A stretch of 31,444 bases of DNA from a virus (lineage: Duplodnaviria; Caudoviricetes): the IMG/VR virus record IMGVR_UViG_3300042154_001013, positions 1-31,444 of that record; one strand, 5' to 3'. A program made the position numbers and the translations under genes. Of this stretch, positions 5,985 through 25,930 are shown piece after piece (positions within the stretch are counted from its first letter, which is position 1; each line of letters opens with the position of its first letter). The notes under the pieces were generated by a model. It ran no database searches, had not been told where the DNA came from, and saw only the letters and a program-made list of their open reading frames with translations.

Positions 5985-7061
5985 ATGGCTACTAAAATGC
6001 TACGCCCTAATGTGGGTATATATGTTGCTACCGCAGATGCTTTTGCTAACTGGCAGAGTCCAACTCTTACAGAAATCTCTAGCGCCGTTAAGGTATTTGA
6101 CATTTCACAGGCCGTCACTGACGACTATACACTAAACCAGACTGAATCTCAGTCAGACAACTCATTGTCTATTGTTGACAATGCAGATGTTACCACTCCA
6201 ACCTACTACAACTACGAGGCTTCCCTTGATGGTTTCCGCGACCAGAACTTGACTGCAACTTCAGTTTACAACAAGTTCCGCGACCTATTTAAGACTCCTG
6301 ACGTTAAGTACTACCTTATCAAGCGTGTTGGTCTTGCACACGATGCAGATTTTGCTCTAGGGCAAGAGATCAGCATCTTTGGTGTTAAGACTGACTTCCC
6401 AACTGAACTTGTTGGCGATGGCGAAATGGTACGTATGGGAGCTCGTTTCCTAACTACAGGTGAAGTTGCTGTTAACGTAGCTGTTGCTGCAGGAACTCTA
6501 GGCACAGGCCCAGAACTTCGTGCAACTCTAGGAACCAAGTCTACTTCAAACGGTAAGATCAAGGTTGTTTGGGTTCCAGCTGCTGATGTAACAAGCGAAT
6601 CAGCTTTCATCTCAGCACCAGACATTGACATTATCAATGGTGGAGTTGACCTAACTGAAGCTATTGCTTTCGATGGTTACGAGCTAGGTGCTCAGGACTC
6701 AAACAAGATTGACGACCGTTCAATCATTGACGAAGGTCAGGTACAGGTTCGTGGTTTTGCACAGTTCTCTGCATCTCTAACTTTCTTCCGTGATGGCGAC
6801 CTAGACGACGCTACAAGCGTTTACAACGTTGCACGTGAAGTCTTTAAGGCGTCAACTGATGGAACTCGTCCAACCGGATTCCTAGTTACACGCATCAACA
6901 AGGCTGCTGGCCCTGATGTTGCTGCTGGTGAAGTTGTATCTGTATACAAGTTCATTGCAGACGCATACATGGACAACACCGAAGGTGAAGACAGCGTTAA
7001 GTTCATGGTCAACTTTGCCCCACAGGGTAAGCTTGGCGTAATGGTTACTGCTGCAGCTTAG
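5985..7061 (+). CDS. Major tail (tube) protein with two tandem tube domains
   Basis: Position before the chaperone and tape measure genes; codon usage suggests high expression. Internal duplication YEASLDGFRD..TSVYNKFRDLFK versus FSASLTFFRD..TSVYNVAREVFK. Confidence 0.85.
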   Translation: MATKMLRPNVGIYVATADAFANWQSPTLTEISSAVKVFDISQAVTDDYTLNQTESQSDNSLSIVDNADVTTPTYYNYEASLDGFRDQNLTATSVYNKFRDLFKTPDVKYYLIKRVGLAHDADFALGQEISIFGVKTDFPTELVGDGEMVRMGARFLTTGEVAVNVAVAAGTLGTGPELRATLGTKSTSNGKIKVVWVPAADVTSESAFISAPDIDIINGGVDLTEAIAFDGYELGAQDSNKIDDRSIIDEGQVQVRGFAQFSASLTFFRDGDLDDATSVYNVAREVFKASTDGTRPTGFLVTRINKAAGPDVAAGEVVSVYKFIADAYMDNTEGEDSVKFMVNFAPQGKLGVMVTAAA

Positions 7062-7158: not shown

Positions 7159-7797
7159 ATGAGCGAAGATATTACATCTGCAGAACAGTCTGCAGCAGAA
7201 ACAAAAGCTAGTGATGTTGCTGATGAGATCTTAAAGATCGCTGAAAGCGCACAATCACAAGGAGTGTTCAACTTAAGCGAAGTTGTTAAAGGTAGGGGTT
7301 ACCCAACTAAAGAAGCTACTATCTATCTTGATGGTGCGGCTGCGTTTGAACTTGCTGAGCTAAACGACATCATGAAGTATGACTTTGATGGCGACAGTAT
7401 GATTGAGAACGAGAATAAGGCAAAAGAAATTGCTGAAAGAATTAAAAAGTCTGCAATTACTTTTGTTATGCGTGGCGTAAGCCAGAAGATTGTTGAAGAC
7501 ACTATTAAGCAAACTAACCTAAAGTATCCGCCAGAGGCTGGAAGAAATGAAGCTAGCGATAACCCTGAGTGGGTTAAATACTATATTGCTTCTTTGATTG
7601 CACAAAACATTGTAAAGGTCATTGACGCTAACGGTAATGTTGATGATCATGTTTACACTGCTGAAGAGATGCTTGATATTCGTGAGTCTATTGCTACTGA
7701 CTCTTGGAACACGCTTGTTGAGAACATGCAGAAGCTAACTCTTGCTAGCGGCTATTTTGAACAATTAACGGATGCAGGTTTTTTACCGAAGTCTTAA
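7159..7797 (+). CDS. Tail assembly chaperone (gpG-like)
   Basis: Lies between the major tail and tape measure genes and ends just after a slippery site. Confidence 0.85.
   Translation: MSEDITSAEQSAAETKASDVADEILKIAESAQSQGVFNLSEVVKGRGYPTKEATIYLDGAAAFELAELNDIMKYDFDGDSMIENENKAKEIAERIKKSAITFVMRGVSQKIVEDTIKQTNLKYPPEAGRNEASDNPEWVKYYIASLIAQNIVKVIDANGNVDDHVYTAEEMLDIRESIATDSWNTLVENMQKLTLASGYFEQLTDAGFLPKS
7779..7785 (+). other. -1 programmed ribosomal frameshift slippery heptamer T TTT TTA
   Basis: In-frame codons GGT TTT TTA. The -1 frame is open (FTEVLTWPGNRSYLVK...) and runs into ORF 7869-8201. Confidence 0.85.
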
Positions 7798-8201
7798 CCT
7801 GGCCCGGCAATCGTTCGTATCTGGTTAAGATAAAAACTGCTATCACTAATGGTATTCGCCCAGTCGCCATGTTGTTCCATGAACAGCCTGGCGACCCTTG
7901 GGTGCCATTTGATTTTATGCTTATAGAAGCATACCAAAACCTTCAAGATGAAACTTGTAATGAGTGCGGTAATCCTGTGTGGGTGTGCCGTAATGAAGAA
8001 GCCGGCAACGTTGGCTTTAAGGTTAAGGTTGGTAAATGTTTTGCTAAGGTTGAGTTAGATAAGTGGCTTGAAAAAGATTCTAAAAAGAATCGCAAGACTT
8101 ATGGTGAGCTCCCTTACATTGTTGCTTACACGTATAATGGCGGCCCTATGCCTACTCGCATGTCTTACTTGAGATCTCTCATGGAAAAGGATAGTGTATA
8201 A
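7782..8201 (+). CDS. Frameshift extension of the tail assembly chaperone (gpGT-like; fusion about 347 aa)
   Basis: No clear SD before ATG 7869; frame open from the slippery site; contains CNEC...C...C motif. Confidence 0.8.
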   Translation, partial: FTEVLTWPGNRSYLVKIKTAITNGIRPVAMLFHEQPGDPWVPFDFMLIEAYQNLQDETCNECGNPVWVCRNEEAGNVGFKVKVGKCFAKVELDKWLEKDSKKNRKTYGELPYIVAYTYNGGPMPTRMSYLRSLMEKDSV

Positions 8202-8203
8202 TA
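8192..8203 (+). promoter_or_regulatory. Candidate -10 promoter element TAGTGTATAATA upstream of the tape measure gene
   Basis: Consensus TATAAT; identical 12-mer at 24149-24160. Confidence 0.45.
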
Positions 8204-8235
8204 CTTATATACGATTTATCTGATTTAGGAGAAAA

Positions 8236-11200
8236 GTGGCTGCTGAAGACTTTAATATTTCCATTGGCTTGGATACTAGTGCAGCCAATAGTGATCTAGC
8301 TAAATTTATTGCGGGCACAAGAAAAGCTGCCCGAGATGCCAGGAAAGAGCTGGCAAGTATTAAAGCCCCTAAGATAGAGTTGTCAAGCAACATTCAAAGT
8401 GAACTTAAAAAAGTTGAAGCTCTCGTATCTAAAATTAACAAAAAGAAAATTGAATTGGGCGATGCTGCTGGGAGTTCTAGGGCAGGTAAACCTACTAGAC
8501 AGGCTGCCGCTGAGGCCGGGGGCAAAGTTAAGTCATCTAGTGCAGGTTCTTATGGTAAAGAAATAACCCGTCTTGAAAACCGAGTTACATATATTAAAAA
8601 TCAATTAGCTTCTTTAGCTAAAATTGCTGATCCTACAGCGACAGACAAACTTAATGTGTCAGCTTTAGTGGCTGAATTAGCTCAAACTCAAAAAGCCATG
8701 AGGGCTGTCAAAGAAAACGCTGGAAACACTTTTGAGGAAATAGCCGACTTACAAAAACAACTTGCCAAAATTGTGGCAGATCCTTCTATAGCTAAAGCTA
8801 TGGAGGAAGAAATAAGAATTGCTAAAAAGAATGTTGAAGCAAGAAAAGCTGCGGACAGTAAAAGAGCTCAGCTTCAAAAAATTATTGAAGAAAATGAACG
8901 TGGCAAGGATGTAGTTGACGCACAAAAGAAGCGTGTCAGTGAGTTAAAGCAGATGCGAGCAGAGTATGTTAAATCACATACAGCTATGCAAAGGGAAATT
9001 AATAGCACTAGAGCTGAGCTTGCTAAAACTACTGATGAGGCATCTAAGTCTCAGCTAAGTAAAAAGATTTCTATGCTAACTTCTGGTTTAAGAAAAGCTA
9101 ATGAATACATTACTTTTTATAGTGAAGAAATTGAAGACCTTAGCTTTGCTAGCCGAAATAAAAATTTAGGTGTTAAAAAGGATCTGAAGAGACTTGGTGT
9201 AGCTGGTGGTCGACAAGCTATTTTGGGTAGCCCAAACGGAACTTCTGCAGACGCTGCTTTACTTCCTCGTTCTCTTTCTAAGCTTGATATTGGCGGTGAG
9301 CAATCAAGCCAACTTAAGTCTATTGCTAGCACTGTTGCAGATGCATTTATTAAAGCCGCTGAAGAAAGTGGCGTAACAGATCCTGCTAAAGCTGTAGGGC
9401 TTAACCCAGATCAATTAGCTGGAGCTTTAAAATCAATTTTCTTCTTGACTTTAGAAAAAATGTTGCCAAACAAAGTCACCCCTCAAGTTGTTGCAGAGAT
9501 GCAGTCAAGCACTTTAGAGGGAAGAAAAAACGGAACAAATAATGCAGGCGGTATCGCGGTTGTGCTCGATGATGCACAGGCTACGGTAGAAGAACTTGCT
9601 GACGGTTTATCTGAAATTGAGGCTGAAGTTGCAGCCATGCTTGAAAAGTCAAGTGAAAACATTGACACAGCTAACGAGTCAAGTAGAAAAACTCGCGGCA
9701 GCAGGACTGATGCTAGCGCAACGCAAGAAATTACAAGAGCTGGAAGTCGCGATGCAACAGGTGAAGTAACTGATGCAGGAGAAGACAGAAGAAGAAACGT
9801 TAGAGATGCTAGCGAAGGCATCAAAGAAATCCTAGAGTTTTTTAGCTCAGGAAATGATATTAAAGATCGTCAAACAGGTCTTTGGCCTACAACAGTTGAG
9901 GCATCCACAAAACTTGCCGATGAAGGTAAACTTAAAGGTGGAGTTATTAATGCCGAAGAAGCTCAGCTCGCTTTTGAAGCAGCCGTGCTCGCATTCCAAG
10001 AAATCGAAAGAAGGCTGCAATCAGGCGAAGCTCAAGGTCTTGGCTTCTCAACCCTAGGCCCTGCTTCTATAGAAAAAGCAGGCATGCGTGGATTCTACAT
10101 GTCAAGCGAAAGACGCAAGCCAAAGTTTGATGATGGCATGTCTGGTAGCAGAGAAGAAGAGCTTAGTGACTCTGAAGATTCTAAATCTACTCCTCTAAAA
10201 AGAGTTCCATTTTTTGAAAAAGGTTTAACACCTGAAGTTCAGGCAGATTTTGATCGTGGCTTTAGAGCTATGCTTAAAAAGTTTTTTACTGACGCAGGAT
10301 CAACAATAGACCAAAGCCTTCTTGAAGCTATAAGAATGAAGGACGTTATAAGCAGTGGCCCTGTCGGAGGCTTTACTCAAAATGCTCCTGGCACTATAGC
10401 AGATTTAATTGTAAAAGAAATTAAAAGAATAAATTCTCAAAATGCTTCAACAGCTGATGTTGTTAGAACAAATGAAGATAAAATTAAAGGCGCTCTTGGA
10501 AATAATTTATCATCTCAAGCTTTAATTTCTGTGATTAGGCAAGTAACTGAAGGATATGTAAACCCACAGTTAGAGCAACAGCCTGATGCTGACCCAGGTT
10601 TTGTGCAGTATACTGCTGTTACTGAAAAAGCTGCAGCTGAAATTTTACAAACATTAAATGGTGCTTCTGATGGCCTTCTTGAAATTATAACAACTTATGC
10701 ATTAATTTTAAAACAATCAAATGAATCAGGTGCAGTAACAACTAATGCTTTTGGTGACCCTAACTTAGGAACTGGTTACGGCTTAGCAGGTAATCCTGCT
10801 ATCCCAGAAATGGCAAGATTATTTAACGCTGCACAAACTGGCAGATCAACTAAGTCTATTCCAGCTTTGGATGCGTCGGGCAATGCTGTGCCAGGTGTTG
10901 AAAGTTTAGTTGTAGAAAATCTGTTCTCTGGATTTAACGAAACAACAACTGATGTTACTAAAGCCGTAGTTCAACTTGCAAAAGAATTCCAAGCTATTTA
11001 TGGTGGAACCCTTTCAGAACTTGGTGCAAAAAAAGGTATGTTTAACAGGGAGACAGGTCTCCCAGCCCAAGAGGGTGACACTGATGTTGTCGAGGCAACA
11101 TTTGCGCAAGCTTTTGTAAAAAACACTCAAGGCTATATTAAAGAAATGTTACAGGCTGGAACAAAGTGGGTTTCAGGTGGTAAGGCAGATGCTTCGGATA

Positions 11201-14200
11201 AAGCTGGTGGAGCTGAAATTCCTTTAGCTGCAATTGAAAAGATTTTTGAAAAATTAAATGTTGCACCTGATGTTGGTTTGCTTGGTGGTGTTGATCTTGT
11301 TGAGTTACAAACAACAATAAAAGATTTGGCTTTAGGTACTACTGAGGTTTCTACTTCAAGAACTAATCTTTCAGCACAAGTTGTAGATGCTTTGAGAGAG
11401 GCCTTTCGCAAAGCTTCAACTGCTGAGGTAACTTCTTCTGGTAAAGTTTTGGCTCGCCCAGAAAATGCTATTGCAGAAAAGTATGGTAGACAAAGTTTGA
11501 TTGCTGCGCCTAAGAAGTTAGGACAGAATAGAAGCGACAACGTTGAGCTTTCAAGACTTTTTGCAAATCAAGAAAATGCTGAGCGTGATGCTGCAAAGCA
11601 GACCCAAGCTGGACTTATTGCAGGTTTAGCTAAAGACGTTACTGCAATAGAGCAAGCCGGTGCAAATACTGCTATAGCCTTTATTGATGGCTATGAAGGT
11701 AAGATGGAAATTCAGTCTCCTTCAAAGAGAATGAAGAAGTCTGGTAAAGATACTGTTAAGGGTCTTGAAGAAGGACTGTTCCAAGGTTTAGAAAGCTTAG
11801 ACTCTGCAGGTCGTGCACTTGCATCTACTTTCCATGAGGGTTACACTGAGCAGGCTAAGGTTGATGCTGTAAACCGTATGCGTCAACTTCGTGAAGAAGG
11901 CAAACATGCAGAAGCTACGCTACTGCACAGATCTATGAAGATGCCACCTGTCCCTGGCGGACCTGTTGGCCCTGCAAAACCTACTGTGCCTGCACCTGCC
12001 ACTGCTAGTGCTGCAGTTCTTTCTACCGAAGCACAGCTTATCGAGAGAAATGCGGTATTCTTAAGAGAACTCGGGATGCTCACTGAGGGTGTTGAAAATG
12101 CTGCAGATACTCTTATTGCTTTAGATATTGAAACCACTGGTCCTGTAAGTAAGGATGGCGGCCCTAATGTTAACCAAGTGTTTGGTTACTCTGTTGTTGC
12201 AGGTAATGGTGTAGCAAATAGGGATGCTGGTGCACTTCCTGGCACTGATGTTGTTACTCCTAGAATGCGCGGTATGGCTCACGGCATGGTTGTGCCACCG
12301 ATTGGCAAGTTCAACACTGGTGCAGCTAGAGCTTTAGGTTTGATGGGTCCAGAGGGCGATGATTTTAGTGTAATTAAAAAGACTCTTATGGATAGAATTA
12401 AGGGTCTTGGTTATGGTAAGGAAAACACTCAGGGCGATGAAGAAACTTACATCAAGCAACTTGAGGATATTGCTTTTATTCTTAGAAAGATTTATGAAGA
12501 AGATATTCCTTTAGCTATTCACAGCTCATCTATGAGCGATATTTCTGGTTTGGGTAAAGAGTTTGCCCGCTATGGAATTACTGCTCCGACTGGTGCACAG
12601 CTTAGAGATAAGGGCCTTCTTGTTGAGACCCAACGTTTAGCTGAAATGGCTGGTGTTCCTGCTGGTAAAGATCAGAGAACTGTAGGTGCTATTTATAGTC
12701 GTTACACTGGTCAAACTATGGGTCCACAGCTTAGACCTGCTGGAAACGTTCCAACTATTAAGGACAGCGCTGCTGTAGCTCACGACCCTACAATTGATAG
12801 TGCAGGAACTTTAGTAAATGCTTTCACAATGAGGGCACTTAAAGAAAAAGCTGCTGGTAAAGAAATTGGTTTGTTTGGTGAAGCGCTAAGTTGGGCTGGT
12901 GCTACTTGGAAGCAAGTAAGCAGCGCTATTTGGGGTAACCGCCAGAGCAAGGGCGGCTCTGAGATGAAGAGCATGGAGAGGCAAGCTGATCCTGTAACAG
13001 GAAACTTGCAGCCAGTCTATACTCCTGGCGCAACAGGTAAGCGCCCTCGTAAAGATCCTGCAGTTGAGCTTTATGAAACAATGACTGAGGACTTGCCGCG
13101 CAAACCTGAGACTGATGCTCAGCAGGCTGCACAGGATCAGGCTACTGCGGCTCAGGAGGCTGCAAAGCTTAGAGATGATTTAGAGAAGGAACGTGCTAGA
13201 CGTAGACGTTTGCAGGCTAATGCTGACTTGCAGTATGAGGCAGATAAGATTGAAGAGCTTGAGTCTATGCTTAAGCAGGCTTTGCTTGAAAAAGATATTC
13301 AACTTGGAAACGAAGGTCGAGGCAAGGGTAAGGATAGGGCTAACCGTCAGGCTCAGATTGACAAGCTTGCCGCAGATATTAAGAAAGCTAAGGCAGATAA
13401 TCCTGCCGCAGCTGATGCGCTAGCTAGAAAGCTTGCTGCTAAAGGCGGGGTTGAGACAGATTTTGTTGCTGTGCGCCAAACCATCGCAAAGAGCGACCTA
13501 GAAAAAGACCTCGAAAAGAGGGCTAAAGAGGCTACTGCAAGGCTTGAAGCAGCGTCAGGTGAGACAAAGCCACAAGGCCAAGGTAAGGGCTCTGCTAGAC
13601 GCCCAGGCAACCCTATTGCGGCACCTCTAGAGGAGCTGCTTGCTGCTGAAAAGAGAATTCAAGGTTCATTAAATAACCCTGACGCACAGTTAAGTCCACA
13701 GCTACGTAAGAGACTTGAAACTGTTATGAAAGCTATCCAGAAGAGTATCAAGGATGGTGCTGTTGGTAAGCTAACTGATTCAGAGATTGAAGTTTTTAAG
13801 GTTCCTGCAGGTGCAACTAAGGTTAAGGATCGTGTTGCAAGCAAGACCGACATGAACAAGCTTAAGAAAGAACTTGAAGTTAAGTTAAAGGAGGCTCAAG
13901 AAGCCGGCAACCAGTCTGCTATTGATTCCGTTACAGCAATGATTAAAGAGTTTGAAGAATCTCTAGCTAGAGGACCTGTAGGTAAATACAGAAACGGTAA
14001 AGATGCTTTTGCTATTCCAGAATCTTATAGACAGGGAACTGTAACTCCAGGTCAAAGACTTCCTAGCACTATAGCTGCTGGCGGTGGCATGAACCCTTCT
14101 AGAGTTGATCACGCTGCTAGACATGATCAAAAGATTGAGAAAGATCAGCTAGAAGCTAAGCAGTTCTCTGCGCAACTTCAGGGTCAGATGAAGGGCGAAA

Positions 14201-17200
14201 TGCGTACCATGGCGGAAGTTGAAAAAGCTAACCGCAAGATGATGGATGGCTGGATTAGCTCTCGTTATGCTTTGTATGACGTCTCTAACACTTACCAACA
14301 ATTCACACGTGTAATGCGTAGAGTTGGTATGGAAGTTAAGCAAGCCATCATGACTAACGCAATGTACGAAACTTCTTTCACTTCTGTTGAAAGATCTATG
14401 CAACCACTGCAAGATGAAATTGCAGGTATGCGTCAAGAAATCATTAAGCTTACTGCAGAACTACCTGTGGCTTTTGATGAGCTTTCTAGAGTAACAACTC
14501 TTGGTGCACAGATGGGTATTAAAGCTGATGGTATTACAAACTTTACTGAACAGGTAACAAAGTTCTCTGCTATTACAGGTTTGGCTTCTGACACTGTTGC
14601 ACAAAAGTTTGGTCGCATCAGTCAGTTAGCTAAGGTTCCTTCAGAGGACTTTGACAAGCTTGGTTCTGCTGTAGCTTATGCAGGTATTAGTGCTGTTGCT
14701 ACTGATGAGCAGATTCTTACATTAACAGAAAACATTGCAGCCGCTGCATCTAACTCTGGTTTTACTGCAGATAAAATTGTTGGTCTTGCTACAACTATGT
14801 CGTCTTTGGGTATTGCACCTGAACAGGCGCGTGGTGTTATTGTGCGTTTGTTCGGTGACATTAACCGTGCTGTTGAGGGTGGCGGAAAGCCTTTGGACGC
14901 TTACGCTGCTCAGCTTGGAATGACTGCTGATGCTACAAGAGAAATGTGGAAGAGCGACCCTGAAGGTTTCTTCAGAACAATGCTTAATGCTTTGGGTCAA
15001 AGCAAGAACATGACTACAGCTTTAGATGCTTTGAACATCACTGAGACACGTGAGGTTAACACTTTGCAGAGACTTGCAGAGAACATGGATGTTTATAACC
15101 AGTCTATGATGGATGCTCAAGAGTCTTACGCTAATGGAACTTTCTTGGGTGACGCTTACGCTAAGACTCAAGATAACATTGCAACTAAGATGACTCTTGT
15201 TGCTAACCAAGTTAAAATGTTGCAGGATGCTTTTGGTGAAGCTCTTGGCCCTGCACTTGACTTTGCCCTTGATGCTGTGCTAGGTATTTTGGATGGTTTA
15301 AATGCTGTTGCAAACAACCCTGTTGGAGCTTGGGCTATTCGTGTGGCTACAGGTTTGAGTGCCATGGTTGCAGCTTTTGTTGCTTACAGAATGATCAGCA
15401 TGAAAGCTACTGCAAGCTTGCTTGCGTTTAGAACTGCACAAGTTAGCTTAGCTAAGATGGGGCAGTCTGAGACTGGCCTAAATGCTTTTAGAAAGATGAT
15501 CACAGGTCAGGAAGTTTTGATTGTTCGTGCAAACGGTAGAGTTGAAGTTTCTAACAAGAAAGCTATTGAGTCATTTAAGAAACTTGGAATGATTAAAGAG
15601 GCTAAAGCAGGCACACCTGAATACGATGCGATTAGTGCTAACATGCAGCCTGGTCGTGGTGGCATGGATTCTATGGGAGAGTTTGGTGCTAGCGGTGCTG
15701 GGGCAAGACTAACTGACACTGAAAATGGTGATGGCTTAATTCAAACTTTGGATCACCAAGCAGCAGCTAAAAAGGGTTATGTTGATGAAACAATTAAATC
15801 TACTGCCGCAACTAAAGCTGAAGGTGCAGCTACTAGTGCAACTTCTGCAGCTAAGACTGCTGATGCTCTCGCAACTAAAGATCAGGCTGCAGCTATCGTT
15901 CAGCAGATGGGTATTAAGCAAGCTGCTATTAAGCTTAAAGAAAATGAAAACAGAGCTTTGCAGGCGGGTATCGCTGCAGGCAACGTTGACATAGCTCAAA
16001 GCCGTGCACAGATTGCAGCAAACAATGCAGAGATAGCTTCGCTAAATGGTGAAGTTGCTGCTCTTGAAAGAAGAAAGACAGCTATCCTTGCAGGTAACGC
16101 TGCAACCGCTGAGTCTGTTGTTGTAATGAACAAGGCTGGTGTTGCTGCAGGTAAGTTTGGTAAGGCGATGACTTTTGCTGGACCTGTTATGGCTGGTCTA
16201 ACAATCGTGCTTGGCTTGGTTGCAATGATTGCAGAAAAGATGGATTCAGCTAAGGTTAACATTGAAGAAGCTGGTGGAGGTCTTGCATCATTTAGAGAGT
16301 CAATTTATAAAGATACTCAAGCTTTGCGAGAAGGTGGAGATGCATACTCAACTTATCAAAGCAAGGTAACAACTTCTACCACCGGATTTAACGAGTGGGC
16401 TTCTAGCCTTCAAAAAGCAACTGGCGCAACCATTGAAGCAGAAGGTGCTACAGCTGAAACAACTGAAAGCGTTAAAGAACAGACTCTTGCTTTAGGCAAA
16501 AACTCTGCTGAATGGCTTGCTAACGCAGCTATGCAGGATGAAGTTGTGCAGAACATGTTTAAAGAATACTTTGACAAAGATAAGGACCTTGCTGCTCTTG
16601 CTGAAAGTGCTGGCACTTCATTCCAATCTATTATTACAGCTGCACTTACTGTGCCTGGAAGTGGTGCAGTAGATTTTATTAATGACACGTTTAATGGAAT
16701 TAAGATTGATCCGTCTATTGCAACTAAGGTTAAAGAAGACTTGCTTAACATTGCTAGAAGCTTGGATGCGACTACTCTTGCCGGTGTAGAAAACTCTAAG
16801 ATCTGGAAGGCCTTGATTGGTAGCCTAGAGCAAACCGAAGAAACTGCTAACGGAACAAACACAGCACTAGAAAAGACTGCTGAAAGAATTTACACTCTAA
16901 CAAATTATGTTAGCGACCTTAGTGGGCTGTTCAATGATGCGTTTAAGATTCGCTATGGACTAACTGAGTCAACCGATAAACTTACTACATCTTGGAAGGC
17001 TGTAGGTGACAGGCTGTCTGAAGCTAGAAAGCAGCTTGAAGCTATTAACCAAGAAATTGCTAGCATGGTTGCTGACAGGAATATTCTTGAATACCAGCTG
17101 AATATTGCTATAAAGTATGGTGACACTATTCGCGCAGATAAAATTCGTGCAGATATTGCTAAGGCTAATGCTGATATTGCTGAAAAGCAGGCAAGCCGTG

Positions 17201-18717
17201 CAGAGGCACAACAGAATGCTAGCACAAAGCTGACTGGAAATAGTGCTGGTGCTATACAGAACCGTGAGACTATGCGTGGAATGGTTGGTGACTATAATGC
17301 ACAGATGGCAGAGCTTGCTAACCAATATCAGTCTACAACAAATATTGTTGATAGAAGGAGACTTAAAGAACAGGCTAAGCAGCTTACCGCAGATTTTAAA
17401 GCTAAAGCAACTAGCATGGGTTTCAGCGAGCAAGAGCTAAAGCCTTACCTAGAATCTTTTAAGGACATGCAAACTGTAATAGCTAAGCTTCCAAACAGGC
17501 TTACTTTGAAGGTTGTTGCGGATCCTGGTATGCGCGCTTGGCTAGAGTGGTGGGCTAATAATAAGGATAAAGATGGTACAGCAAATGTTACAGCGAATAC
17601 TCCTGCCCCTGCTGGCACTAGCGGTGGTGGCGGTGGCGGTGGCGGTGGCGGCGGCGGCGGCACTGATCCTGCCGGTACTAATCCTGCGGGCACTTCTGGC
17701 ACACAGGTTTCGTCAAGGATCACTAAGAAAGAACAGGCGGCGCTTGCAGGCTTAAACTCTGGTTCTACCAAAAATTCTCTTATTGGTGACAAGCTTGTAA
17801 AAGCTGACAGTGCAGATAGAGTGTTTAGAAGATTAAACGCAAAAGGTGGGTATCGATTTGATCGAGTACTAACAGCAAAAGATGTTAGCGCAGAAAAAGG
17901 TTTTAACGATAATGATAGGTCTGCATTCTTTACTGCTGAAAAAAATCGTTTAAGCCCAATGGAAAGAATGGCTCTTCTATCTCAAGTAGATAAAGATGCT
18001 CTTGCTCAAACAGAAAAAGCTTTACCACAATGGGTTTTAGATGGCATTAGCCTTTTAAAAACATCTAAAACCGCTTACAGCAGATACTATGGTGCTTGGA
18101 ATACGGACACTATAGCTGATCGAATAGATGCTTACGAAGAAGCTGCAAAAAACCGTGGAGTTTCTAAAAATCCTGATGATTTTAAGACACTTATGAAACA
18201 AGATCAAGAAGTCATGAGGCCTTATAAACTTGCAATTCAAAATCTTACTGCAGAAGCTAAAGCAAAGGCTAAAGAGTTTATTGACATTAGAACTCTTTTA
18301 AATACAAATGGATTTAATGGAACAAATCTTAAAGGCTTACTAGGCGAAACATCTTTCAAGAAAACTTACGATAGCTTTGCTTCTGGTGGTCTAGTTAGAG
18401 GTCCCGGCACAGGTACAAGTGACAGCATTAACGCTAGACTATCTAACGGCGAGTTTGTGCAAAGACAAAAAGCTGTACAATACTATGGCCTAGACTTTAT
18501 GAACTCTATCAACAGGCTTCAAATGCCTAGAATGTCATACAACGCTGGGTCTCAACAGGCTGGAAGAAATAATATTATGGTAGAATTATCTCCTAATGCA
18601 GTTATGCAACTAATGGCGATGTCTAACAGACCTATCAACCTTTACTCAGACGACAGACAAATTGCCACTAGCGCAAACAATGGCAACAGATTACTTGCAA
18701 TGAGAGGGTCAAACTAA
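8236..18717 (+). CDS. Giant tape measure protein (3493 aa) with embedded DEDDh exonuclease-like domain
   Basis: SD AGGAG plus GTG start; follows the G/GT chaperone. TP901-family core from about 14360 (YETSFTSVERS...ELSRVTTLGAQMGI), hydrophobic segments, and a C-terminal FASGGLVRGPGTGTSDSINARLSNGEFV motif. Confidence 0.95.
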   Translation: MAAEDFNISIGLDTSAANSDLAKFIAGTRKAARDARKELASIKAPKIELSSNIQSELKKVEALVSKINKKKIELGDAAGSSRAGKPTRQAAAEAGGKVKSSSAGSYGKEITRLENRVTYIKNQLASLAKIADPTATDKLNVSALVAELAQTQKAMRAVKENAGNTFEEIADLQKQLAKIVADPSIAKAMEEEIRIAKKNVEARKAADSKRAQLQKIIEENERGKDVVDAQKKRVSELKQMRAEYVKSHTAMQREINSTRAELAKTTDEASKSQLSKKISMLTSGLRKANEYITFYSEEIEDLSFASRNKNLGVKKDLKRLGVAGGRQAILGSPNGTSADAALLPRSLSKLDIGGEQSSQLKSIASTVADAFIKAAEESGVTDPAKAVGLNPDQLAGALKSIFFLTLEKMLPNKVTPQVVAEMQSSTLEGRKNGTNNAGGIAVVLDDAQATVEELADGLSEIEAEVAAMLEKSSENIDTANESSRKTRGSRTDASATQEITRAGSRDATGEVTDAGEDRRRNVRDASEGIKEILEFFSSGNDIKDRQTGLWPTTVEASTKLADEGKLKGGVINAEEAQLAFEAAVLAFQEIERRLQSGEAQGLGFSTLGPASIEKAGMRGFYMSSERRKPKFDDGMSGSREEELSDSEDSKSTPLKRVPFFEKGLTPEVQADFDRGFRAMLKKFFTDAGSTIDQSLLEAIRMKDVISSGPVGGFTQNAPGTIADLIVKEIKRINSQNASTADVVRTNEDKIKGALGNNLSSQALISVIRQVTEGYVNPQLEQQPDADPGFVQYTAVTEKAAAEILQTLNGASDGLLEIITTYALILKQSNESGAVTTNAFGDPNLGTGYGLAGNPAIPEMARLFNAAQTGRSTKSIPALDASGNAVPGVESLVVENLFSGFNETTTDVTKAVVQLAKEFQAIYGGTLSELGAKKGMFNRETGLPAQEGDTDVVEATFAQAFVKNTQGYIKEMLQAGTKWVSGGKADASDKAGGAEIPLAAIEKIFEKLNVAPDVGLLGGVDLVELQTTIKDLALGTTEVSTSRTNLSAQVVDALREAFRKASTAEVTSSGKVLARPENAIAEKYGRQSLIAAPKKLGQNRSDNVELSRLFANQENAERDAAKQTQAGLIAGLAKDVTAIEQAGANTAIAFIDGYEGKMEIQSPSKRMKKSGKDTVKGLEEGLFQGLESLDSAGRALASTFHEGYTEQAKVDAVNRMRQLREEGKHAEATLLHRSMKMPPVPGGPVGPAKPTVPAPATASAAVLSTEAQLIERNAVFLRELGMLTEGVENAADTLIALDIETTGPVSKDGGPNVNQVFGYSVVAGNGVANRDAGALPGTDVVTPRMRGMAHGMVVPPIGKFNTGAARALGLMGPEGDDFSVIKKTLMDRIKGLGYGKENTQGDEETYIKQLEDIAFILRKIYEEDIPLAIHSSSMSDISGLGKEFARYGITAPTGAQLRDKGLLVETQRLAEMAGVPAGKDQRTVGAIYSRYTGQTMGPQLRPAGNVPTIKDSAAVAHDPTIDSAGTLVNAFTMRALKEKAAGKEIGLFGEALSWAGATWKQVSSAIWGNRQSKGGSEMKSMERQADPVTGNLQPVYTPGATGKRPRKDPAVELYETMTEDLPRKPETDAQQAAQDQATAAQEAAKLRDDLEKERARRRRLQANADLQYEADKIEELESMLKQALLEKDIQLGNEGRGKGKDRANRQAQIDKLAADIKKAKADNPAAADALARKLAAKGGVETDFVAVRQTIAKSDLEKDLEKRAKEATARLEAASGETKPQGQGKGSARRPGNPIAAPLEELLAAEKRIQGSLNNPDAQLSPQLRKRLETVMKAIQKSIKDGAVGKLTDSEIEVFKVPAGATKVKDRVASKTDMNKLKKELEVKLKEAQEAGNQSAIDSVTAMIKEFEESLARGPVGKYRNGKDAFAIPESYRQGTVTPGQRLPSTIAAGGGMNPSRVDHAARHDQKIEKDQLEAKQFSAQLQGQMKGEMRTMAEVEKANRKMMDGWISSRYALYDVSNTYQQFTRVMRRVGMEVKQAIMTNAMYETSFTSVERSMQPLQDEIAGMRQEIIKLTAELPVAFDELSRVTTLGAQMGIKADGITNFTEQVTKFSAITGLASDTVAQKFGRISQLAKVPSEDFDKLGSAVAYAGISAVATDEQILTLTENIAAAASNSGFTADKIVGLATTMSSLGIAPEQARGVIVRLFGDINRAVEGGGKPLDAYAAQLGMTADATREMWKSDPEGFFRTMLNALGQSKNMTTALDALNITETREVNTLQRLAENMDVYNQSMMDAQESYANGTFLGDAYAKTQDNIATKMTLVANQVKMLQDAFGEALGPALDFALDAVLGILDGLNAVANNPVGAWAIRVATGLSAMVAAFVAYRMISMKATASLLAFRTAQVSLAKMGQSETGLNAFRKMITGQEVLIVRANGRVEVSNKKAIESFKKLGMIKEAKAGTPEYDAISANMQPGRGGMDSMGEFGASGAGARLTDTENGDGLIQTLDHQAAAKKGYVDETIKSTAATKAEGAATSATSAAKTADALATKDQAAAIVQQMGIKQAAIKLKENENRALQAGIAAGNVDIAQSRAQIAANNAEIASLNGEVAALERRKTAILAGNAATAESVVVMNKAGVAAGKFGKAMTFAGPVMAGLTIVLGLVAMIAEKMDSAKVNIEEAGGGLASFRESIYKDTQALREGGDAYSTYQSKVTTSTTGFNEWASSLQKATGATIEAEGATAETTESVKEQTLALGKNSAEWLANAAMQDEVVQNMFKEYFDKDKDLAALAESAGTSFQSIITAALTVPGSGAVDFINDTFNGIKIDPSIATKVKEDLLNIARSLDATTLAGVENSKIWKALIGSLEQTEETANGTNTALEKTAERIYTLTNYVSDLSGLFNDAFKIRYGLTESTDKLTTSWKAVGDRLSEARKQLEAINQEIASMVADRNILEYQLNIAIKYGDTIRADKIRADIAKANADIAEKQASRAEAQQNASTKLTGNSAGAIQNRETMRGMVGDYNAQMAELANQYQSTTNIVDRRRLKEQAKQLTADFKAKATSMGFSEQELKPYLESFKDMQTVIAKLPNRLTLKVVADPGMRAWLEWWANNKDKDGTANVTANTPAPAGTSGGGGGGGGGGGGGTDPAGTNPAGTSGTQVSSRITKKEQAALAGLNSGSTKNSLIGDKLVKADSADRVFRRLNAKGGYRFDRVLTAKDVSAEKGFNDNDRSAFFTAEKNRLSPMERMALLSQVDKDALAQTEKALPQWVLDGISLLKTSKTAYSRYYGAWNTDTIADRIDAYEEAAKNRGVSKNPDDFKTLMKQDQEVMRPYKLAIQNLTAEAKAKAKEFIDIRTLLNTNGFNGTNLKGLLGETSFKKTYDSFASGGLVRGPGTGTSDSINARLSNGEFVQRQKAVQYYGLDFMNSINRLQMPRMSYNAGSQQAGRNNIMVELSPNAVMQLMAMSNRPINLYSDDRQIATSANNGNRLLAMRGSN
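12106..12830 (+). other. DEDDh (DnaQ-like) 3'-5' exonuclease domain within the tape measure protein
   Basis: ExoI LIALDIETTG (D1297, E1299), ExoII-like LAIHSSSMSD (D1435), ExoIII AHDPTID (H1516, D1521). Confidence 0.75.
17605..17700 (+). repeat. Poly-Gly (GGT/GGC)n linker with PAGT repeats in the tape measure protein
   Basis: PAGTS-G13-TDPAGTNPAGTSG. Confidence 0.9.
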
Positions 18718-19652
18718 TGGCTGTATATGATGGTAAAGTTTGGTTTGGTAACCAACGTTATGGCACTTGGATTAAAGCTCCCCTAGCTGACATGGATGCT
18801 AGCTCTACAGGGTTTCAGTCTGAGCAAAACTTTAGCAATGGTGGAAGCTTTATAAAGTCTTCTTTTGGTTCAGCTAGATCTTTCAGCATGTCTTGGAACG
18901 GTGACGTTAACGACCTTCAGGTTATTAAAAACTTTAAAGACGGCTTGTATGGTGGTGGACTTCTGTATTGGGAAGATCCGTTTGCTAAGAACATTCTTCC
19001 GCCACATTGGGCTGCACCTATGCTTACTGTGCGTGATTGGCCTAGCCTTATTTCTAGCGACAACAAACCTACTCCTATAACAGAGTCAACTTCAGGCAAA
19101 AACTTGCCTTACCAAAGTGCACAGTATGTTGTAACAAACACTGCGGAAACTTCTAGGTCTTTAACTATTCTTATTCCGGAAGAGCATGTCCTTAGACTTG
19201 GTTTTGTTTACTCTGCTACGGGCACAGCTAGCATTAAGGTTGTGCCAGTTCTAGCTTCTAACGGCCTTGATGCCACACACGTAACTTTAACACAACTAGC
19301 TTACAATACTTCTTCTATTTACGATATTAGCAACGGCACTTTTAGTAACGTAACTGGAGCAAGCCAAAAAGTTAAAGCTGTTAGAGTTTATATCTCTAAG
19401 TCGGATAATACTGCTTCAACTATAACTATTCGCGGTGGTATTGGTACATTATTTTTAGCTGATGGAGTTTCTGGGCATGGGCACGATCTTTGGGATTATG
19501 GTGTAGAATATGCAACTAACTGGAGTCCAGGTCAAGGGTTTACTGGCTGCGTAATGACAGAGCCACCTTCAATACAATACAATGGTATTGTTGGGGGGCA
19601 AAAGCTTGTTAAGGTTGGCGCAAAACTTAAAGAGGTTGAAGCATGGCTGTAG
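18717..19652 (+). CDS. Minor tail protein (distal tail/Dit-like)
   Basis: TAATG overlap; first gene after the tape measure gene; 'LYWEDPFAKNILPPHWA' motif. Confidence 0.7.
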   Translation: MAVYDGKVWFGNQRYGTWIKAPLADMDASSTGFQSEQNFSNGGSFIKSSFGSARSFSMSWNGDVNDLQVIKNFKDGLYGGGLLYWEDPFAKNILPPHWAAPMLTVRDWPSLISSDNKPTPITESTSGKNLPYQSAQYVVTNTAETSRSLTILIPEEHVLRLGFVYSATGTASIKVVPVLASNGLDATHVTLTQLAYNTSSIYDISNGTFSNVTGASQKVKAVRVYISKSDNTASTITIRGGIGTLFLADGVSGHGHDLWDYGVEYATNWSPGQGFTGCVMTEPPSIQYNGIVGGQKLVKVGAKLKEVEAWL

Positions 19653-21313
19653 TTTTTAAAGCAAAAACTGGTTCCGCGCATGTGAGCGAGCTCGCTAATT
19701 ACAGCGTAGTTGCAGAAACAGTTTCTACTGACGCGACAGACAGTGGTGGGTCTACTGGATCTATGGATGTGACCTTGCTTTCTTCAGATTCAACTATTGA
19801 CAAGGATGGCAACAGGGTTAACAGGCCAGGCTACATGAGGGCAAGCGCGTTGCTAGGTCGTGAAGTTTCTTTAATAGACTCACCTATGTATTACAATGAA
19901 TCAAAGTTTGATTACCAAAAGTCTACTAATGGTAGAGGATCTTTTCACGGAACCGTAAGCTCAATGAATGCTAGTGCAGGAGGCACAACTAGCTTTAGCG
20001 TAGATAGTTTGCTGTTTAAGTTTAACTGTGAAAAAACTGCTGAACCACACTTTGGGGCTACAGCTACACAAAAAACTGCTTTCATATATTACTGTAGCTT
20101 AGCTAATGTGGTTGTAGATCAAAACCTTATTAGCTCTGACTTTGACATTCCTGTAAACTATGCGGCTTGGAAGGGTAATGTTTGGGAGCACATTAAAATG
20201 TTTTGTGTAGCTAACAAGGCTGAAGTATTTGTTAACTATAGTGGGCAAATTGTTTTAAGAAAGATTAGACAAAACACTATTTCTGTCATGGAGAACAGCG
20301 GCGCTTCAATGAGCGTAAATCTTTTAGGCAACACTAGAGCTATTGAAATGTATCATTACGATAATTCTTGGGAGCAAGATGATGTAATATATTCTGCTGA
20401 AACAACTTTTCAACTTAATAGAGGCGAGCAACTTACTGAGCTTGTAGATGTAAGTTTTTCTACTACAGACGATAAGATTATCCAACCTGTGTGCGTCAAA
20501 GCAATTATGCCTTATCCTTTTGTTGGAGGTGTAAACCAATCTGTTTACACTGTTACTGACAACTTAAACTTTCCTGTAGAACCTGAGTGGTGGAATGATA
20601 GTGGTGGAAAAGTTTATGTCAGTGTGTCTAAGGAAAATCCTCTTCAACTTGAAATAAAGATTCAAGCACCCGATCAGGAAAACAGTGCGTATGTTGAGCC
20701 TTTTAAACTTGCAGAGTATGATACAGAATCTAGACCTGCCCTGTATATTTGTGGTGACGGTGTTAAGATAAACAAGAAACTTAGAACTATAGCTACTGGC
20801 GCTGATGAAACTTTTATTTCTAGGGACAGTAAGGCTACTGTAGACAATCCTTTTATTACAGATATTTCCTATCATTTATTGCAGTCTTCAGCTTATGCTA
20901 CTGGCCCTACCGCTAGCGTTAGTTTGACAATAGGTAAGTCTGGTTTGCCTTACGAAATAAATGAAGTTGCTGGAGCAAGATTTAAGCACAAGAACGGTTA
21001 CTATAGGGTAACTAACGCAAACATTTCAGATTCTGGCATAGGTTTAACAGGTAAAGCTGACACTACTTTTGATGATTTAACATTAGTGTATTCAGAAACT
21101 TTTGGTGAATACAATAGCACTGTAGCTTACAGCCCAAATAACTTTACTTCTTTTAACAATGACACTAGCAGGCCTTCAAATACTTTTGCAGGCTTTAACT
21201 TAGCTTATCCTGCTGAGACTTTCGAGCAAGTTGGAGAGTCTTACCTTGGGTTAAGCTTTTCGGACATGGCTTTTATGCCTCTAGGAGATAAGTTGGATCT
21301 ATATGTCAACTAA
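19643..21313 (+). CDS. Minor tail protein (tail tip / hub-like)
   Basis: Second gene after the tape measure gene; 556 aa; beta-rich. Confidence 0.65.
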   Translation: MAVVFKAKTGSAHVSELANYSVVAETVSTDATDSGGSTGSMDVTLLSSDSTIDKDGNRVNRPGYMRASALLGREVSLIDSPMYYNESKFDYQKSTNGRGSFHGTVSSMNASAGGTTSFSVDSLLFKFNCEKTAEPHFGATATQKTAFIYYCSLANVVVDQNLISSDFDIPVNYAAWKGNVWEHIKMFCVANKAEVFVNYSGQIVLRKIRQNTISVMENSGASMSVNLLGNTRAIEMYHYDNSWEQDDVIYSAETTFQLNRGEQLTELVDVSFSTTDDKIIQPVCVKAIMPYPFVGGVNQSVYTVTDNLNFPVEPEWWNDSGGKVYVSVSKENPLQLEIKIQAPDQENSAYVEPFKLAEYDTESRPALYICGDGVKINKKLRTIATGADETFISRDSKATVDNPFITDISYHLLQSSAYATGPTASVSLTIGKSGLPYEINEVAGARFKHKNGYYRVTNANISDSGIGLTGKADTTFDDLTLVYSETFGEYNSTVAYSPNNFTSFNNDTSRPSNTFAGFNLAYPAETFEQVGESYLGLSFSDMAFMPLGDKLDLYVN

Positions 21314-23597: not shown

Positions 23598-24146
23598 ATG
23601 ACAGAAAAAATAGCAATTTATGTAGAACCATTCCCAAAAAACAAGCGTGGCGATGGCTTCAAGAACATGGCTTCATACAGAACTAACCCACACCGTGGCG
23701 TAGACTGGTCTGTTGCCGGAGGTTCAAAGATTAAGGCCATTACAGGCGGAACAGTTATGGAAGTTGGCGAGACTAAAGTCTTGGGTAACTACCTAATTCA
23801 ATCTACTTACGATGGTTGCTTTATTCTTTACGCACACTTCCAAGTCCCATCAACTCTAAAGCAGGGTGACAAGGTTGAGGCTGGAAAGACTATCGTTGGT
23901 CTAGTTGGAACAACTGGAACAGCTTCAACTGGAAACCACCTACACGTTACATACGGTGTGAAGAAGAACCTGATCACAGCTGGTATGCCTGATCTGCGTG
24001 ATCTATTCGCCGTACTCGATGCAGCACCTAAGAAGACTGTTGCAGCTAAGGTTGTGTCTGCTGTCAAAAAAGTTGTGCCAACTAAAGCTGCTAAGGCTAC
24101 AGTAGTCCTTTCTGAGCCAGCAAAGCCTACTGCAACCAAAAAGTAG
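23598..24146 (+). CDS. Endolysin, peptidase M23 family
   Basis: HxxxD (HRGVD), YAH and 'GTTGTASTGNHLH' (HxH) motifs; K/A/P-rich tail; upstream of membrane genes. Confidence 0.9.
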   Translation: MTEKIAIYVEPFPKNKRGDGFKNMASYRTNPHRGVDWSVAGGSKIKAITGGTVMEVGETKVLGNYLIQSTYDGCFILYAHFQVPSTLKQGDKVEAGKTIVGLVGTTGTASTGNHLHVTYGVKKNLITAGMPDLRDLFAVLDAAPKKTVAAKVVSAVKKVVPTKAAKATVVLSEPAKPTATKK

Positions 24147-24735: not shown

Positions 24736-24771
24736 AATAAAAAGCCCCCGATTGCTCGGGGGTTTTTTATT
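24736..24771. terminator. Bidirectional rho-independent terminator
   Basis: AATAAAAAGCCCCCGA-TTGC-TCGGGGGTTTTTTATT between convergent operons, with an A tract on one side and a T tract on the other. Confidence 0.9.
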
Positions 24772-25623: not shown

Positions 25624-25930
25624 GTCTGTGCCTCCTTGGCTCTCGACAAGTGTAACATTCGGTATCGTCGCACACGTAGTCGCAGTGTACACAGCCTAAG
25701 AACTCATCACTGAGTTCGACAGCGTAACGCCCACAGCCACATACTACAGGAACCTCTACGAGGCTATCTGTTTCGCGGTCGTAGATTACTTGTGTTACCG
25801 TATAATCTGCTTGTCTTGGTGACGTTCCTCGGCTGTTACTACCCAGCTCGCCATCCCAGGTTTTGTTTCGTGACCTGAAAATTCTTTGAAATAGTGACTT
25901 CCGCCGTCTATTGTTGGACATTGAACCCAT
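25616..25930 (-). CDS. Small Cys-rich protein (start uncertain)
   Basis: CGC...CVHCDYVC...CYTC fills the gap 25616-25795, but the only canonical starts lie within the upstream gene. Confidence 0.5.
   Translation of the reverse strand: MGSMSNNRRRKSLFQRIFRSRNKTWDGELGSNSRGTSPRQADYTVTQVIYDRETDSLVEVPVVCGCGRYAVELSDEFLGCVHCDYVCDDTECYTCREPRRHRHA

What the first reader, a model, noticed from the sequence alone, without database searches (positions are those of the whole stretch)
12106..12830. Apparently intact DEDDh 3'-5' exonuclease inside the tape measure protein
Seen: all three Exo motifs occur in order within about 230 aa of the TMP. They are ExoI IALDIETTG (D1297/E1299), ExoII-like AIHSSSMSD (D1435) and ExoIII AHDPTID (H1516-x4-D1521). 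A Pro/Ala linker (PPVPGGPVGPAKPTVPAPATA) precedes the domain and a low-complexity charged segment follows it. Established: TMPs leave the tail during genome ejection, and their usual enzymatic cargo is peptidoglycan hydrolases, not DnaQ-fold nucleases. Inference: this may be a virion-delivered nuclease acting before phage gene expression, for example on genome ends, defence nucleic acids or signalling oligonucleotides, in the style of polyvalent ejected proteins.
Basis: partly seen in the sequence, partly recalled or inferred. Interest (0 to 1): 0.9.

Follow-up and report, generated by a model that had tools for sequence, protein, structure and literature searches.

The report
Exonuclease built into phage tape measure
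The giant tail-length "ruler" protein of an uncultured lake phage contains an exonuclease-fold domain whose five catalytic positions are kept in all 91 complete family copies compared, so the phage likely carries a ready-made DNA-end-trimming enzyme into the cell along with its genome.

Summary
Confirmed. Window 8236-18717 encodes a 3,493-aa tape measure protein (TMP). Residues ~1290-1540 fold (AlphaFold pLDDT 85.5) as a DnaQ/DEDDh 3'-5' exonuclease: Foldseek TREX1 E 1e-5; VIA Z 14.2 to Pol III epsilon. Pfam and PHROGs miss it. A search by the TMP core, not by the domain, gave 95 homologues; 91 carry the domain and form one clade. In 91 complete domains (query included) D1297, E1299, H1516 and D1521 are invariant and ExoII is always D/E, although many pairs are only ~25% identical. 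The three cultured relatives tested lack the whole arm. Independent lake-water contigs span the fusion, so it is no chimera. WhiB in relatives points to actinobacterial hosts. Likely mechanism (inferred): the head-proximal arm leaves the tail just ahead of the DNA, refolds at the entry channel and trims 3' ends before phage gene expression. The genome's own ends are my first guess for the substrate, host defence nucleic acids the second. Activity, delivery and substrate are untested. Closest precedent: the RNA-polymerase-bearing TMP of Thermus phage P23-45. I found no paper on nuclease TMPs. This scan noted the same kind of fusion before on other DNA (at least 14 genomes), but nothing resembling this sequence.

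The parts
5985..7061 (+). Major tail (tube) protein, 358 aa
   Evidence: PF25595 E 3e-60; PHROG 2491
7159..8201 (+). Tail assembly chaperones G (7159-7797) and T (7869-8201), with a predicted -1 frameshift heptamer TTTTTTA at 7779-7785
   Evidence: PHROG 15960/20192, the two ORFs matching positions 2-201 and 244-337 of 20192; heptamer and open -1 frame
8236..18717 (+). Tape measure protein, 3,493 aa
   Evidence: PHROG 17594 E 1.1e-112 and five more TMP families
8236..11943 (+). N-terminal arm ahead of the nuclease (aa 1-1236), poorly conserved, no family recognised, no RNA-polymerase DxDGD motif
   Evidence: mean identity to 19 more distant near-clade homologues 0.16-0.41 per 100 aa; Atlas gave only hypothetical proteins; motif 0 of 96
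11944..12021 (+). Pro/Ala-rich linker (aa 1237-1262)
   Evidence: sequence
12103..12855 (+). DEDDh (DnaQ-fold) 3'-5' exonuclease domain, about aa 1290-1540
   Evidence: AlphaFold pLDDT 85.5; Foldseek TREX1 E 9.9e-6; VIA Z 14.2, rmsd 3.4, 173 aligned to Pol III epsilon; Atlas RNase_T clusters at 0.93
12115..12141 (+). ExoI motif IALDIETTG (D1297, E1299), on the first strand of the model
   Evidence: D and E in 91 of 91 complete domains
12514..12540 (+). ExoII motif AIHSSSMSD (D1435), at the start of a helix after a short strand
   Evidence: D in 66 and E in 25 of 91
12778..12798 (+). ExoIII motif AHDPTID (H1516, D1521), loop and start of the last helix
   Evidence: H and D in 91 of 91
12913..14115 (+). 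Charged, poorly conserved linker between nuclease and TMP core (aa ~1560-1960)
   Evidence: linker 153-443 aa across the family
14122..15432 (+). Conserved tape-measure core (aa 1963-2399)
   Evidence: 95 homologues
15328..15384 (+). Predicted membrane segment 1 (aa 2365-2383)
   Evidence: Kyte-Doolittle scan
16174..16230 (+). Predicted membrane segment 2 (aa 2647-2665)
   Evidence: Kyte-Doolittle scan
18717..21313 (+). Minor tail genes directly after the TMP
   Evidence: PHROG 20280 and 14644

Best explanation
The tape measure protein contains a DnaQ-fold (DEDDh) domain with a complete, family-wide conserved set of catalytic residues, which likely works as a virion-delivered 3'-5' exonuclease that trims DNA 3' ends at the genome entry channel before any phage gene is expressed. 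Steps: (1) shown: the fold is predicted with high confidence, the catalytic residues are conserved, and the domain sits in the N-terminal arm 150-440 aa ahead of the TMP core. (2) From other siphophages: the TMP fills the tail as a trimer, C-termini at the baseplate and the far end against the DNA. So this arm would be packed extended at the head end and leave last, just ahead of the genome. (3) Inferred from the P23-45 precedent: the arm refolds on the cytoplasmic side while the hydrophobic part forms the channel. (4) Inferred, weakest: about three tethered copies suit a local, low-copy substrate. I commit to the incoming genome's own ends, trimmed or resected so that terminal repeats can pair and the genome can close early. 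Odds: real domain under selection for catalysis ~0.9; acts at infection after delivery ~0.7; own genome ends as the substrate ~0.4 overall.
For: Fold: for the window's domain; for a distant family member (P0055; pLDDT 95.7; RNase T E 2e-4). Selection: only five columns are invariant in 91 complete domains, and four of them are catalytic (D1297, E1299, H1516, D1521; the fifth is P1354); ExoII is D or E in all 91. Median pairwise identity in the outer group is 25%. The columns kept at 85% or more in 64 outer-group arms lie mostly in the nuclease. Stable fusion: 91 of 95 core-selected homologues carry the domain; they form one clade, FastTree support 1.0; domain and core distances correlate (Spearman 0.88; 0.62 and 0.60 within groups). 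No free-standing relative of 143-513 aa scored among the 8,000 candidates, and the five hits among 1.84 billion representatives were all TMPs. TMP orientation: PMC11445458 and PMC13033339 (passages). Enzyme carried in a full-size virion TMP: PMC10770324. Termini: after one unannotated record, the terminase of a complete relative is closest (44-45%) to Arthrobacter phages such as Amigo. Amigo and four other cluster AQ phages have 1,584-bp direct terminal repeats (PMC5513430).
Against: No activity, virion or substrate data exist, and no cultured member was found. The termini of this family were not measured; 45% terminase identity is only a hint. Cultured relatives with terminal repeats manage without the arm: Yappy, Pan2 and Commonplace have 164-205 aa arms and no domain. 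The family already encodes a Sak4-like annealer, SSB and a Cas4-type exonuclease that could close the genome after early expression. DEDDh enzymes mostly trim single-stranded ends and stall at duplexes (recalled), so deep resection is not their usual work. Both predicted membrane segments lie C-terminal of the domain; a simple hairpin puts arm and C-terminus on one side, so the arm must thread through the channel. The structural hits tie between DNA and RNA exonucleases (epsilon, DinG, RNase T, ERI1, ExoI at Z 12.9-14.2), so DNA specificity is not shown.
Confidence: 0.4

Rival explanations
1. Delivered and active as above, but the target belongs to the host: the nuclease destroys single-stranded defence nucleic acids (retron msDNA, reverse-transcriptase products, crRNA or prespacer ends, linear oligonucleotide signals) in the first minutes of infection.
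For: The best Foldseek hits are TREX1/TREX2, which remove immune-stimulating DNA in animals (recalled). One homologue (P0039) carries a YAcAr/SLOG domain 140 aa upstream of the nuclease (PF10686 E 1e-8). Injected polyvalent proteins are proposed to carry signal-targeting enzymes (PMC7824862 passage).
Against: Counter-defence cargo tends to turn over between relatives (recalled), whereas this domain is kept in all intact clade members and tracks the core tree. About three tethered copies are few for diffusible targets. A fold hit at TM ~0.46 does not carry TREX1's function over.
Confidence: 0.25
2. The nuclease works in the producing cell late in infection, as unassembled TMP or as a cleaved arm (trimming replication or recombination intermediates, or recycling host DNA); the fusion is only a way to be expressed late.
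For: Cultured relatives have a free-standing DEDD exonuclease beside the late genes (Amigo gp46, Pan2_25). None was found in 5 of 5 records of this family, two of them complete (PF00929, PF13482, tblastn and motif scan), so the TMP domain could fill that role.
Against: Those free-standing genes are DEDDy (YxxxD) RNase_H_2 proteins with no similarity to the TMP domain, so this is not a simple gene move. The domain sits inside the TMP, 400-1,400 aa from the N-terminus, and no free form was found. A late enzyme gains nothing obvious from that position.
Confidence: 0.15
3. The domain is a metal-dependent clamp for the 3' end of the packaged genome. It links the leading DNA end to the TMP so that the DNA is pulled into the channel, with little or no turnover.
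For: The head-proximal TMP end is thought to meet the DNA end (PMC11445458, PMC13033339). The near clade has drifted from canonical motifs (AHDPxxD, ET for DT), and 25 of 91 have E at ExoII.
Against: The general-base His is invariant (91 of 91), which a pure binder would not need. The domain lies 400-1,400 aa from the N-terminus, and a folded 250-aa domain in three copies would hardly fit a tail lumen in which the TMP density is about 2 nm wide (JBD30).
Confidence: 0.12
4. A decayed insertion that now serves only as tape length, or an assembly artefact.
For: No hit to Pfam, PHROGs or PDB sequences.
Against: Catalytic residues are invariant at ~25% identity; independent contigs span the fusion; 91 of 95 homologues share it.
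Confidence: 0.03

Closest known systems
Thermus phage P23-45 gp96 (TMP-fused virion RNA polymerase; Chaban et al. 2024, PMC10770324; abstract, sections 6 and 13 and passages read)
   Same: A giant TMP with a nucleic-acid enzyme in its N-terminal part and membrane segments further on. The enzyme is present in virions as part of the full-size TMP and is proposed to act at the TMP pore.
   Different: The cargo there is a two-barrel RNA polymerase. Here it is a DEDDh exonuclease, and no DxDGD motif occurs in 96 family proteins. Activity here is untested.
DEDDh 3'-5' exonucleases: E. coli Pol III epsilon (2ido, 1j53), S. aureus DinG exonuclease domain, RNase T, ExoI, TREX1/TREX2, Cas2-DnaQ (8h18)
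   Same: Same fold over nearly the whole domain (Z 12.2-14.2) and the same DxE / D / HxxxxD set.
   Different: 13-21% identity in most rows, about 80 aa of insertions, below Pfam RNase_T detection, and embedded in a tail protein.
Arthrobacter cluster AQ (Amigo), Microbacterium cluster ED, Curtobacterium phages Yappy and Commonplace, phage Pan2
   Same: Related TMP core (31-40%) and terminase (36-45%); Amigo has a similar primase / Sak4-like / Cas4-exonuclease / WhiB / helicase module.
   Different: Yappy, Commonplace and Pan2 have TMPs of 1,183-1,554 aa with 164-205 aa arms and no nuclease domain. Amigo and Pan2 have a separate, unrelated DEDDy exonuclease gene.
Polyvalent proteins of phages and conjugative elements (Iyer et al. 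2017, PMC5512222; term search of the main text only)
   Same: Large proteins thought to enter with the DNA and to carry enzymes; one homologue here has SLOG plus DEDDh.
   Different: The main text has 0 hits for 'tape measure' and 'DEDD'. Here the enzyme is single and fixed. Supplements were not seen.

Membership tests
DEDDh (DnaQ-like) 3'-5' exonucleases | DnaQ / RNase H-like fold | tested here: met
   pLDDT 85.5, pTM 0.86; Foldseek top 8 all TREX1/2, E 1e-5 to 6e-5; VIA Z 14.2, rmsd 3.4, 173 of 175 aligned to epsilon
DEDDh (DnaQ-like) 3'-5' exonucleases | ExoI DxE on the first strand | tested here: met
   D1297/E1299 on strand E11-18 of the model; 91 of 91
DEDDh (DnaQ-like) 3'-5' exonucleases | ExoII acidic residue | tested here: met
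   D1435; D in 66, E in 25 of 91
DEDDh (DnaQ-like) 3'-5' exonucleases | ExoIII H-x4-D (h subtype, not Y-x3-D) | tested here: met
   H1516/D1521; 91 of 91 each
DEDDh (DnaQ-like) 3'-5' exonucleases | Acidic residues clustered into a two-metal site | tested here: inconclusive
Pfam RNase_T (PF00929) | Score above the curated cut-off | tested here: not met
   No hit at E 1 for the domain or for any of 22 near-clade members; only an Atlas feature resemblance at 0.93
DEDDh (DnaQ-like) 3'-5' exonucleases | Metal-dependent 3'-5' exonuclease activity | not testable with these tools
   needs an assay
Siphophage tape measure proteins | Gene between tail tube / frameshifting chaperones and minor tail genes | tested here: met
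Siphophage tape measure proteins | TMP core homology and membrane segments | tested here: met
   PHROG 17594 E 1e-112; two hydrophobic segments. PF10145 does not hit the window protein but hits 14 of 15 homologues scanned
Siphophage tape measure proteins | Whole length sets tail length and is ejected | not testable with these tools
   At 0.155-0.159 nm per residue (from JBD30 and Douge) the tail would be about 540-555 nm with the arm and about 240 nm without it; no virion is known
P23-45-type TMP-fused virion RNA polymerase | DxDGD metal-binding motif in the N-terminal part | tested here: not met
   0 of 96 proteins
Polyvalent proteins (Iyer et al. 2017) | Several unrelated enzymatic domains in one polypeptide | tested here: inconclusive
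   One enzyme recognised in the window protein; about 1,200 aa of arm stay unassigned and were not folded; SLOG + DEDDh in P0039; no further arm cargo by Pfam in 15 more homologues
Polyvalent proteins (Iyer et al. 2017) | Delivered into the host with the DNA | not testable with these tools
   needs virion proteomics and infection experiments

The most novel reading that the evidence does not exclude
A clade of actinobacterial lake phages builds a tail of about half a micrometre so as to store an unfolded exonuclease. The enzyme refolds at the entry pore and cuts back the 3' ends of its own incoming genome, making cohesive ends from the terminal repeats so that the genome closes before a single phage gene is read: a virion nuclease aimed at its own DNA.
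Probability: 0.2. Interest if true: 0.85.

Novelty: new variant of a known kind. Interest (0 to 1): 0.66.

Why it matters
Tape measure proteins are treated as rulers and channels with at most wall-degrading cargo; the only nucleic-acid enzyme I found described in one is the P23-45 RNA polymerase. A nuclease held under strict catalytic selection in about 90 TMPs means that the tail lumen can be a regular delivery route for cytoplasmic enzymes, and that these phages need an exonuclease step at the earliest moment of infection. It makes two open questions testable with one small soluble domain: what happens to linear genome ends right after ejection, and which proteins act before gene expression. 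Standard annotation misses the domain entirely.

Tried and rejected
Sequence searches for the domain gave nothing in Pfam, PHROGs, PDB sequences or cultured phages (for the outer-group TMP P0061, 15 of 515 records were shown and none reached into the domain). Donor family not found: no free-standing relative among the 8,000 candidates scored at 143-513 aa; representatives search 5 hits, all TMPs. Rejected: that the domain is the relocated free-standing 'DnaQ-like' gene of Amigo or Pan2 (DEDDy type, no similarity). Rejected: a virion RNA polymerase in the arm. The near-clade and outer-group profiles match each other only moderately (hhalign probability 83-86%, E 5e-6 to 9e-6, over the second half). 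Their common origin rests on this plus the same position, one core clade and the same fold; two captures into the same slot are not strictly excluded. No related prophage or host contig in GTDB (24 pattern matches, none confirmed; close relatives only), so the host is inferred from WhiB and cultured relatives. No RNA holder listed. A locus scan with the outer-group alignment could not run for lack of a conserved stretch. The wide VIA search was not obtained; the second-look VIA search was. The 'direct terminal repeats' label of G001/G002 was not used as evidence of real termini, because G001 begins inside the replication module. Rows left out of the 91-domain count: P0072 (starts inside the domain), P0028 (starts just behind it), P0095-P0097 (short arms, outside the clade). 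Literature searches that showed no paper on a nuclease in a TMP (listings seen, selected papers opened): (0 papers); the library lacks most subscription papers, and no supplements were read.

Full report
Observation. The window is a 31,444-base virus record holding the tail module of a siphophage and part of its replication module. The ORF at 8236-18717 encodes 3,493 aa. It follows the tail tube gene (PF25595) and two chaperone ORFs that match successive parts of PHROG 20192 and are linked by a TTTTTTA heptamer at 7779 with an open -1 frame. Its residues 1963-2399 match TMP families (PHROG 17594, E 1e-112). No shuffle of 5,000 reproduced the ordered pattern (pattern written after the fact).

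Fold. Pfam, PHROGs and PDB sequence searches miss the domain. The ESM Atlas lists RNase_T-bearing viral clusters at 0.93 (29% and 90% of members; 158-160 shared features, below the level typical of same-family hits). AlphaFold on a 22-sequence alignment gave pLDDT 85.5 and pTM 0.86, with ExoI on the first strand, ExoII at the start of a helix after a short strand, and ExoIII at the last helix. Foldseek's top eight PDB hits are TREX1/TREX2 (E 1e-5 to 6e-5, TM 0.44-0.48). VIA gives Z 14.2 (rmsd 3.4, 173 aligned) to Pol III epsilon, tied within 1 Z unit with the DinG exonuclease domain, polymerase proofreading domains and Cas2-DnaQ; all 50 rows shown are DEDD-fold proteins. A distant family member (P0055) folds at pLDDT 95.7 and hits RNase T, REXO2/Orn and ExoI. 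The fold is thus settled; the subfamily and DNA/RNA preference are not.

Family. A search with the domain gave 21 full-length TMPs among 2,786 candidates, with all five catalytic residues invariant in 22 of 22. To avoid selecting on the domain I searched with the TMP core: 95 proteins among 2,446 candidates scored. Of 26 near homologues (core 59-94%), 25 carry the domain; the other (P0028) begins just behind it. Of 69 outer homologues (33-49%), 66 carry a more canonical version (DTEF...GxN-x4-D/E...AHxAxxD); the three without have arms of 268-322 aa. In a joint alignment of 91 complete domains, only D1297, E1299, P1354, H1516 and D1521 are invariant, and ExoII is D (66) or E (25). Median identity among outer domains is 25%. 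All domain-bearing TMPs form one clade in a core tree (support 1.0, rooted on Pan2), and domain and core distances correlate. This points to one old capture and steady selection on the active site. Against this: the two subgroup profiles match only at 83-86% probability, and no donor family was found.

Not an artefact. Sixteen runs are listed for the stretch (15 labelled lake-water metagenome), nine holding half or more of the words and four marked as possible sources. In two runs not so marked, single contigs cover 11761-17611 and 11824-17611; a third covers 8000-12596; no joints were listed.

The phage. WhiB occurs in 4 of 5 related records, among them one whose TMP is identical to the window's, so the host is likely an actinobacterium. 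The best cultured matches of TMP core and terminase are mostly phages of Curtobacterium, Arthrobacter, Microbacterium and Clavibacter. Three cultured TMPs tested are 1,183-1,554 aa, with arms of 164-205 aa and no nuclease domain. Among 45 ORFs scanned from the complete relative G001 (of 63 called; I left out the TMP, tail genes and some short ORFs) are primase, helicase, a Sak4-like annealer, SSB and a Cas4-type exonuclease, but no DNA polymerase, RNA polymerase or integrase hit. No free-standing DEDD gene was found in five records, two of them complete. Amigo and Pan2 have one, but it is a DEDDy enzyme unrelated to the TMP domain.

Mechanism. In JBD30 and the mycobacteriophage Douge the TMP is a trimer with its C-termini in the baseplate, the DNA end is thought to meet it near the connector, and it is proposed to form the entry channel (PMC11445458, PMC13033339; passages). 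Their ratios of tail length to residues would give about 550 nm here. In P23-45 an N-terminal RNA polymerase is present in virions as part of the full-size 5,002-aa TMP and is proposed to act at the pore (PMC10770324). By analogy (inferred), the arm is stored extended, leaves just ahead of the DNA and refolds inside the cell, tethered 150-440 aa from the core. About three tethered enzymes suit a local substrate, so I put the incoming genome's ends first (0.4). The terminase is closest, among annotated phages, to those of the Amigo group, which has 1,584-bp direct terminal repeats (PMC5513430), and trimming 3' ends could let such repeats pair. The case against: the termini are unmeasured, cultured relatives do without the arm, the phage has its own recombination genes, DEDDh enzymes usually stop at duplexes (recalled), and the membrane topology requires the arm to thread through the channel. 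Counter-defence (0.25) is next: a SLOG domain sits beside the nuclease in one homologue, but the fixed inheritance is unlike a fast-changing counter-defence gene. Late action in the producing cell (0.15) and a non-cutting end clamp (0.12) remain open.

Novelty. Six searches of the paper library on TMPs with nuclease or enzyme cargo showed no description of an exonuclease in a TMP. I saw the listings and ran term searches in PMC10684548, PMC7824862 and PMC5512222; the last has no 'tape measure' or 'DEDD' in its main text. Supplements were not read and most subscription papers are not held. Earlier notes of this scan report DEDDh domains in TMPs of at least 14 other genomes (unchecked AI notes, not tested here), while look-ups by this sequence and by place found nothing. 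The P23-45 lead and the 'entry site' wording came from those notes; I then read the paper. Verdict: a real, conserved, apparently unpublished enzyme cargo in a TMP, a new variant of a known kind (enzyme-bearing TMP), with function still to be shown. Interest 0.66.

Noticed in passing
P0039 aa 797-937 (homologue): A YAcAr-type SLOG domain (PF10686 E 1e-8; PHROG 289) is inserted in the arm about 80-140 aa before the DEDDh domain: a second enzyme-like cargo in one family member.
   Followed up: partly
window 7779-7785: TTTTTTA heptamer near the end of the first tail chaperone gene with an open -1 frame into the second: an ordinary G/GT-type frameshift.
   Followed up: yes
window ~11690-11850 (TMP aa ~1150-1205): A conserved block with an I-x-SPSK motif (19 of 96 proteins, nearly all in the near clade). 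I recall such motifs from C-terminal regions of TMPs, which may mean that the arm holds a piece of a second TMP.
   Followed up: no
window ~17600-18370 (TMP aa ~3120-3380): A Gly-run linker opens a hypervariable cassette before the conserved C-terminus (identity 0.10-0.22). L003 has P-G-x-Y-N-P-Y repeats here and P0045 a weak zinc-peptidase hit in its C-terminal part: a likely second cargo slot.
   Followed up: no
window 25795-27096 (-): 433-aa ORF labelled 'exonuclease' by PHROG 284; its motifs (DWADWQ, GGGDMVE, GNH, HGD, HHFHH) look like a calcineurin-type metallophosphoesterase (recalled).
   Followed up: no
window 24770-25429 (-): 219-aa protein whose C-terminal half matches PHROG 2859 (unknown, E 5e-44); G001 encodes that half alone as a 113-aa ORF.
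   Followed up: no
L020:17265-19998 and L021:7746-8027 (G001); L022:5226-6538 (G005): Relatives encode an amidoligase plus glutamine amidotransferase pair and a nucleotide-modification-associated domain 1 (PF07659) protein; the sibling record G005 also has a C5 methyltransferase. DNA modification could matter for self/non-self choice by the nuclease.
   Followed up: no
window 23598-24146 versus L019:4247-4957: The window has an M23 peptidase in the lysis slot where the relative G001 has a CHAP-domain protein.
   Followed up: no
L026:14317-15147 (Amigo gp46) and L017:20215-20940 (Pan2_25): The gene annotated 'DnaQ-like DNA polymerase III subunit' in Amigo is a DEDDy RNase_H_2 protein with a zinc ribbon, not a DEDDh epsilon-like one.
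   Followed up: yes
L017 (ON968453.1, phage Pan2): Recorded with a cyanobacterial host, yet its TMP core ranks among actinobacterial phages; the host label may deserve a check.
   Followed up: no
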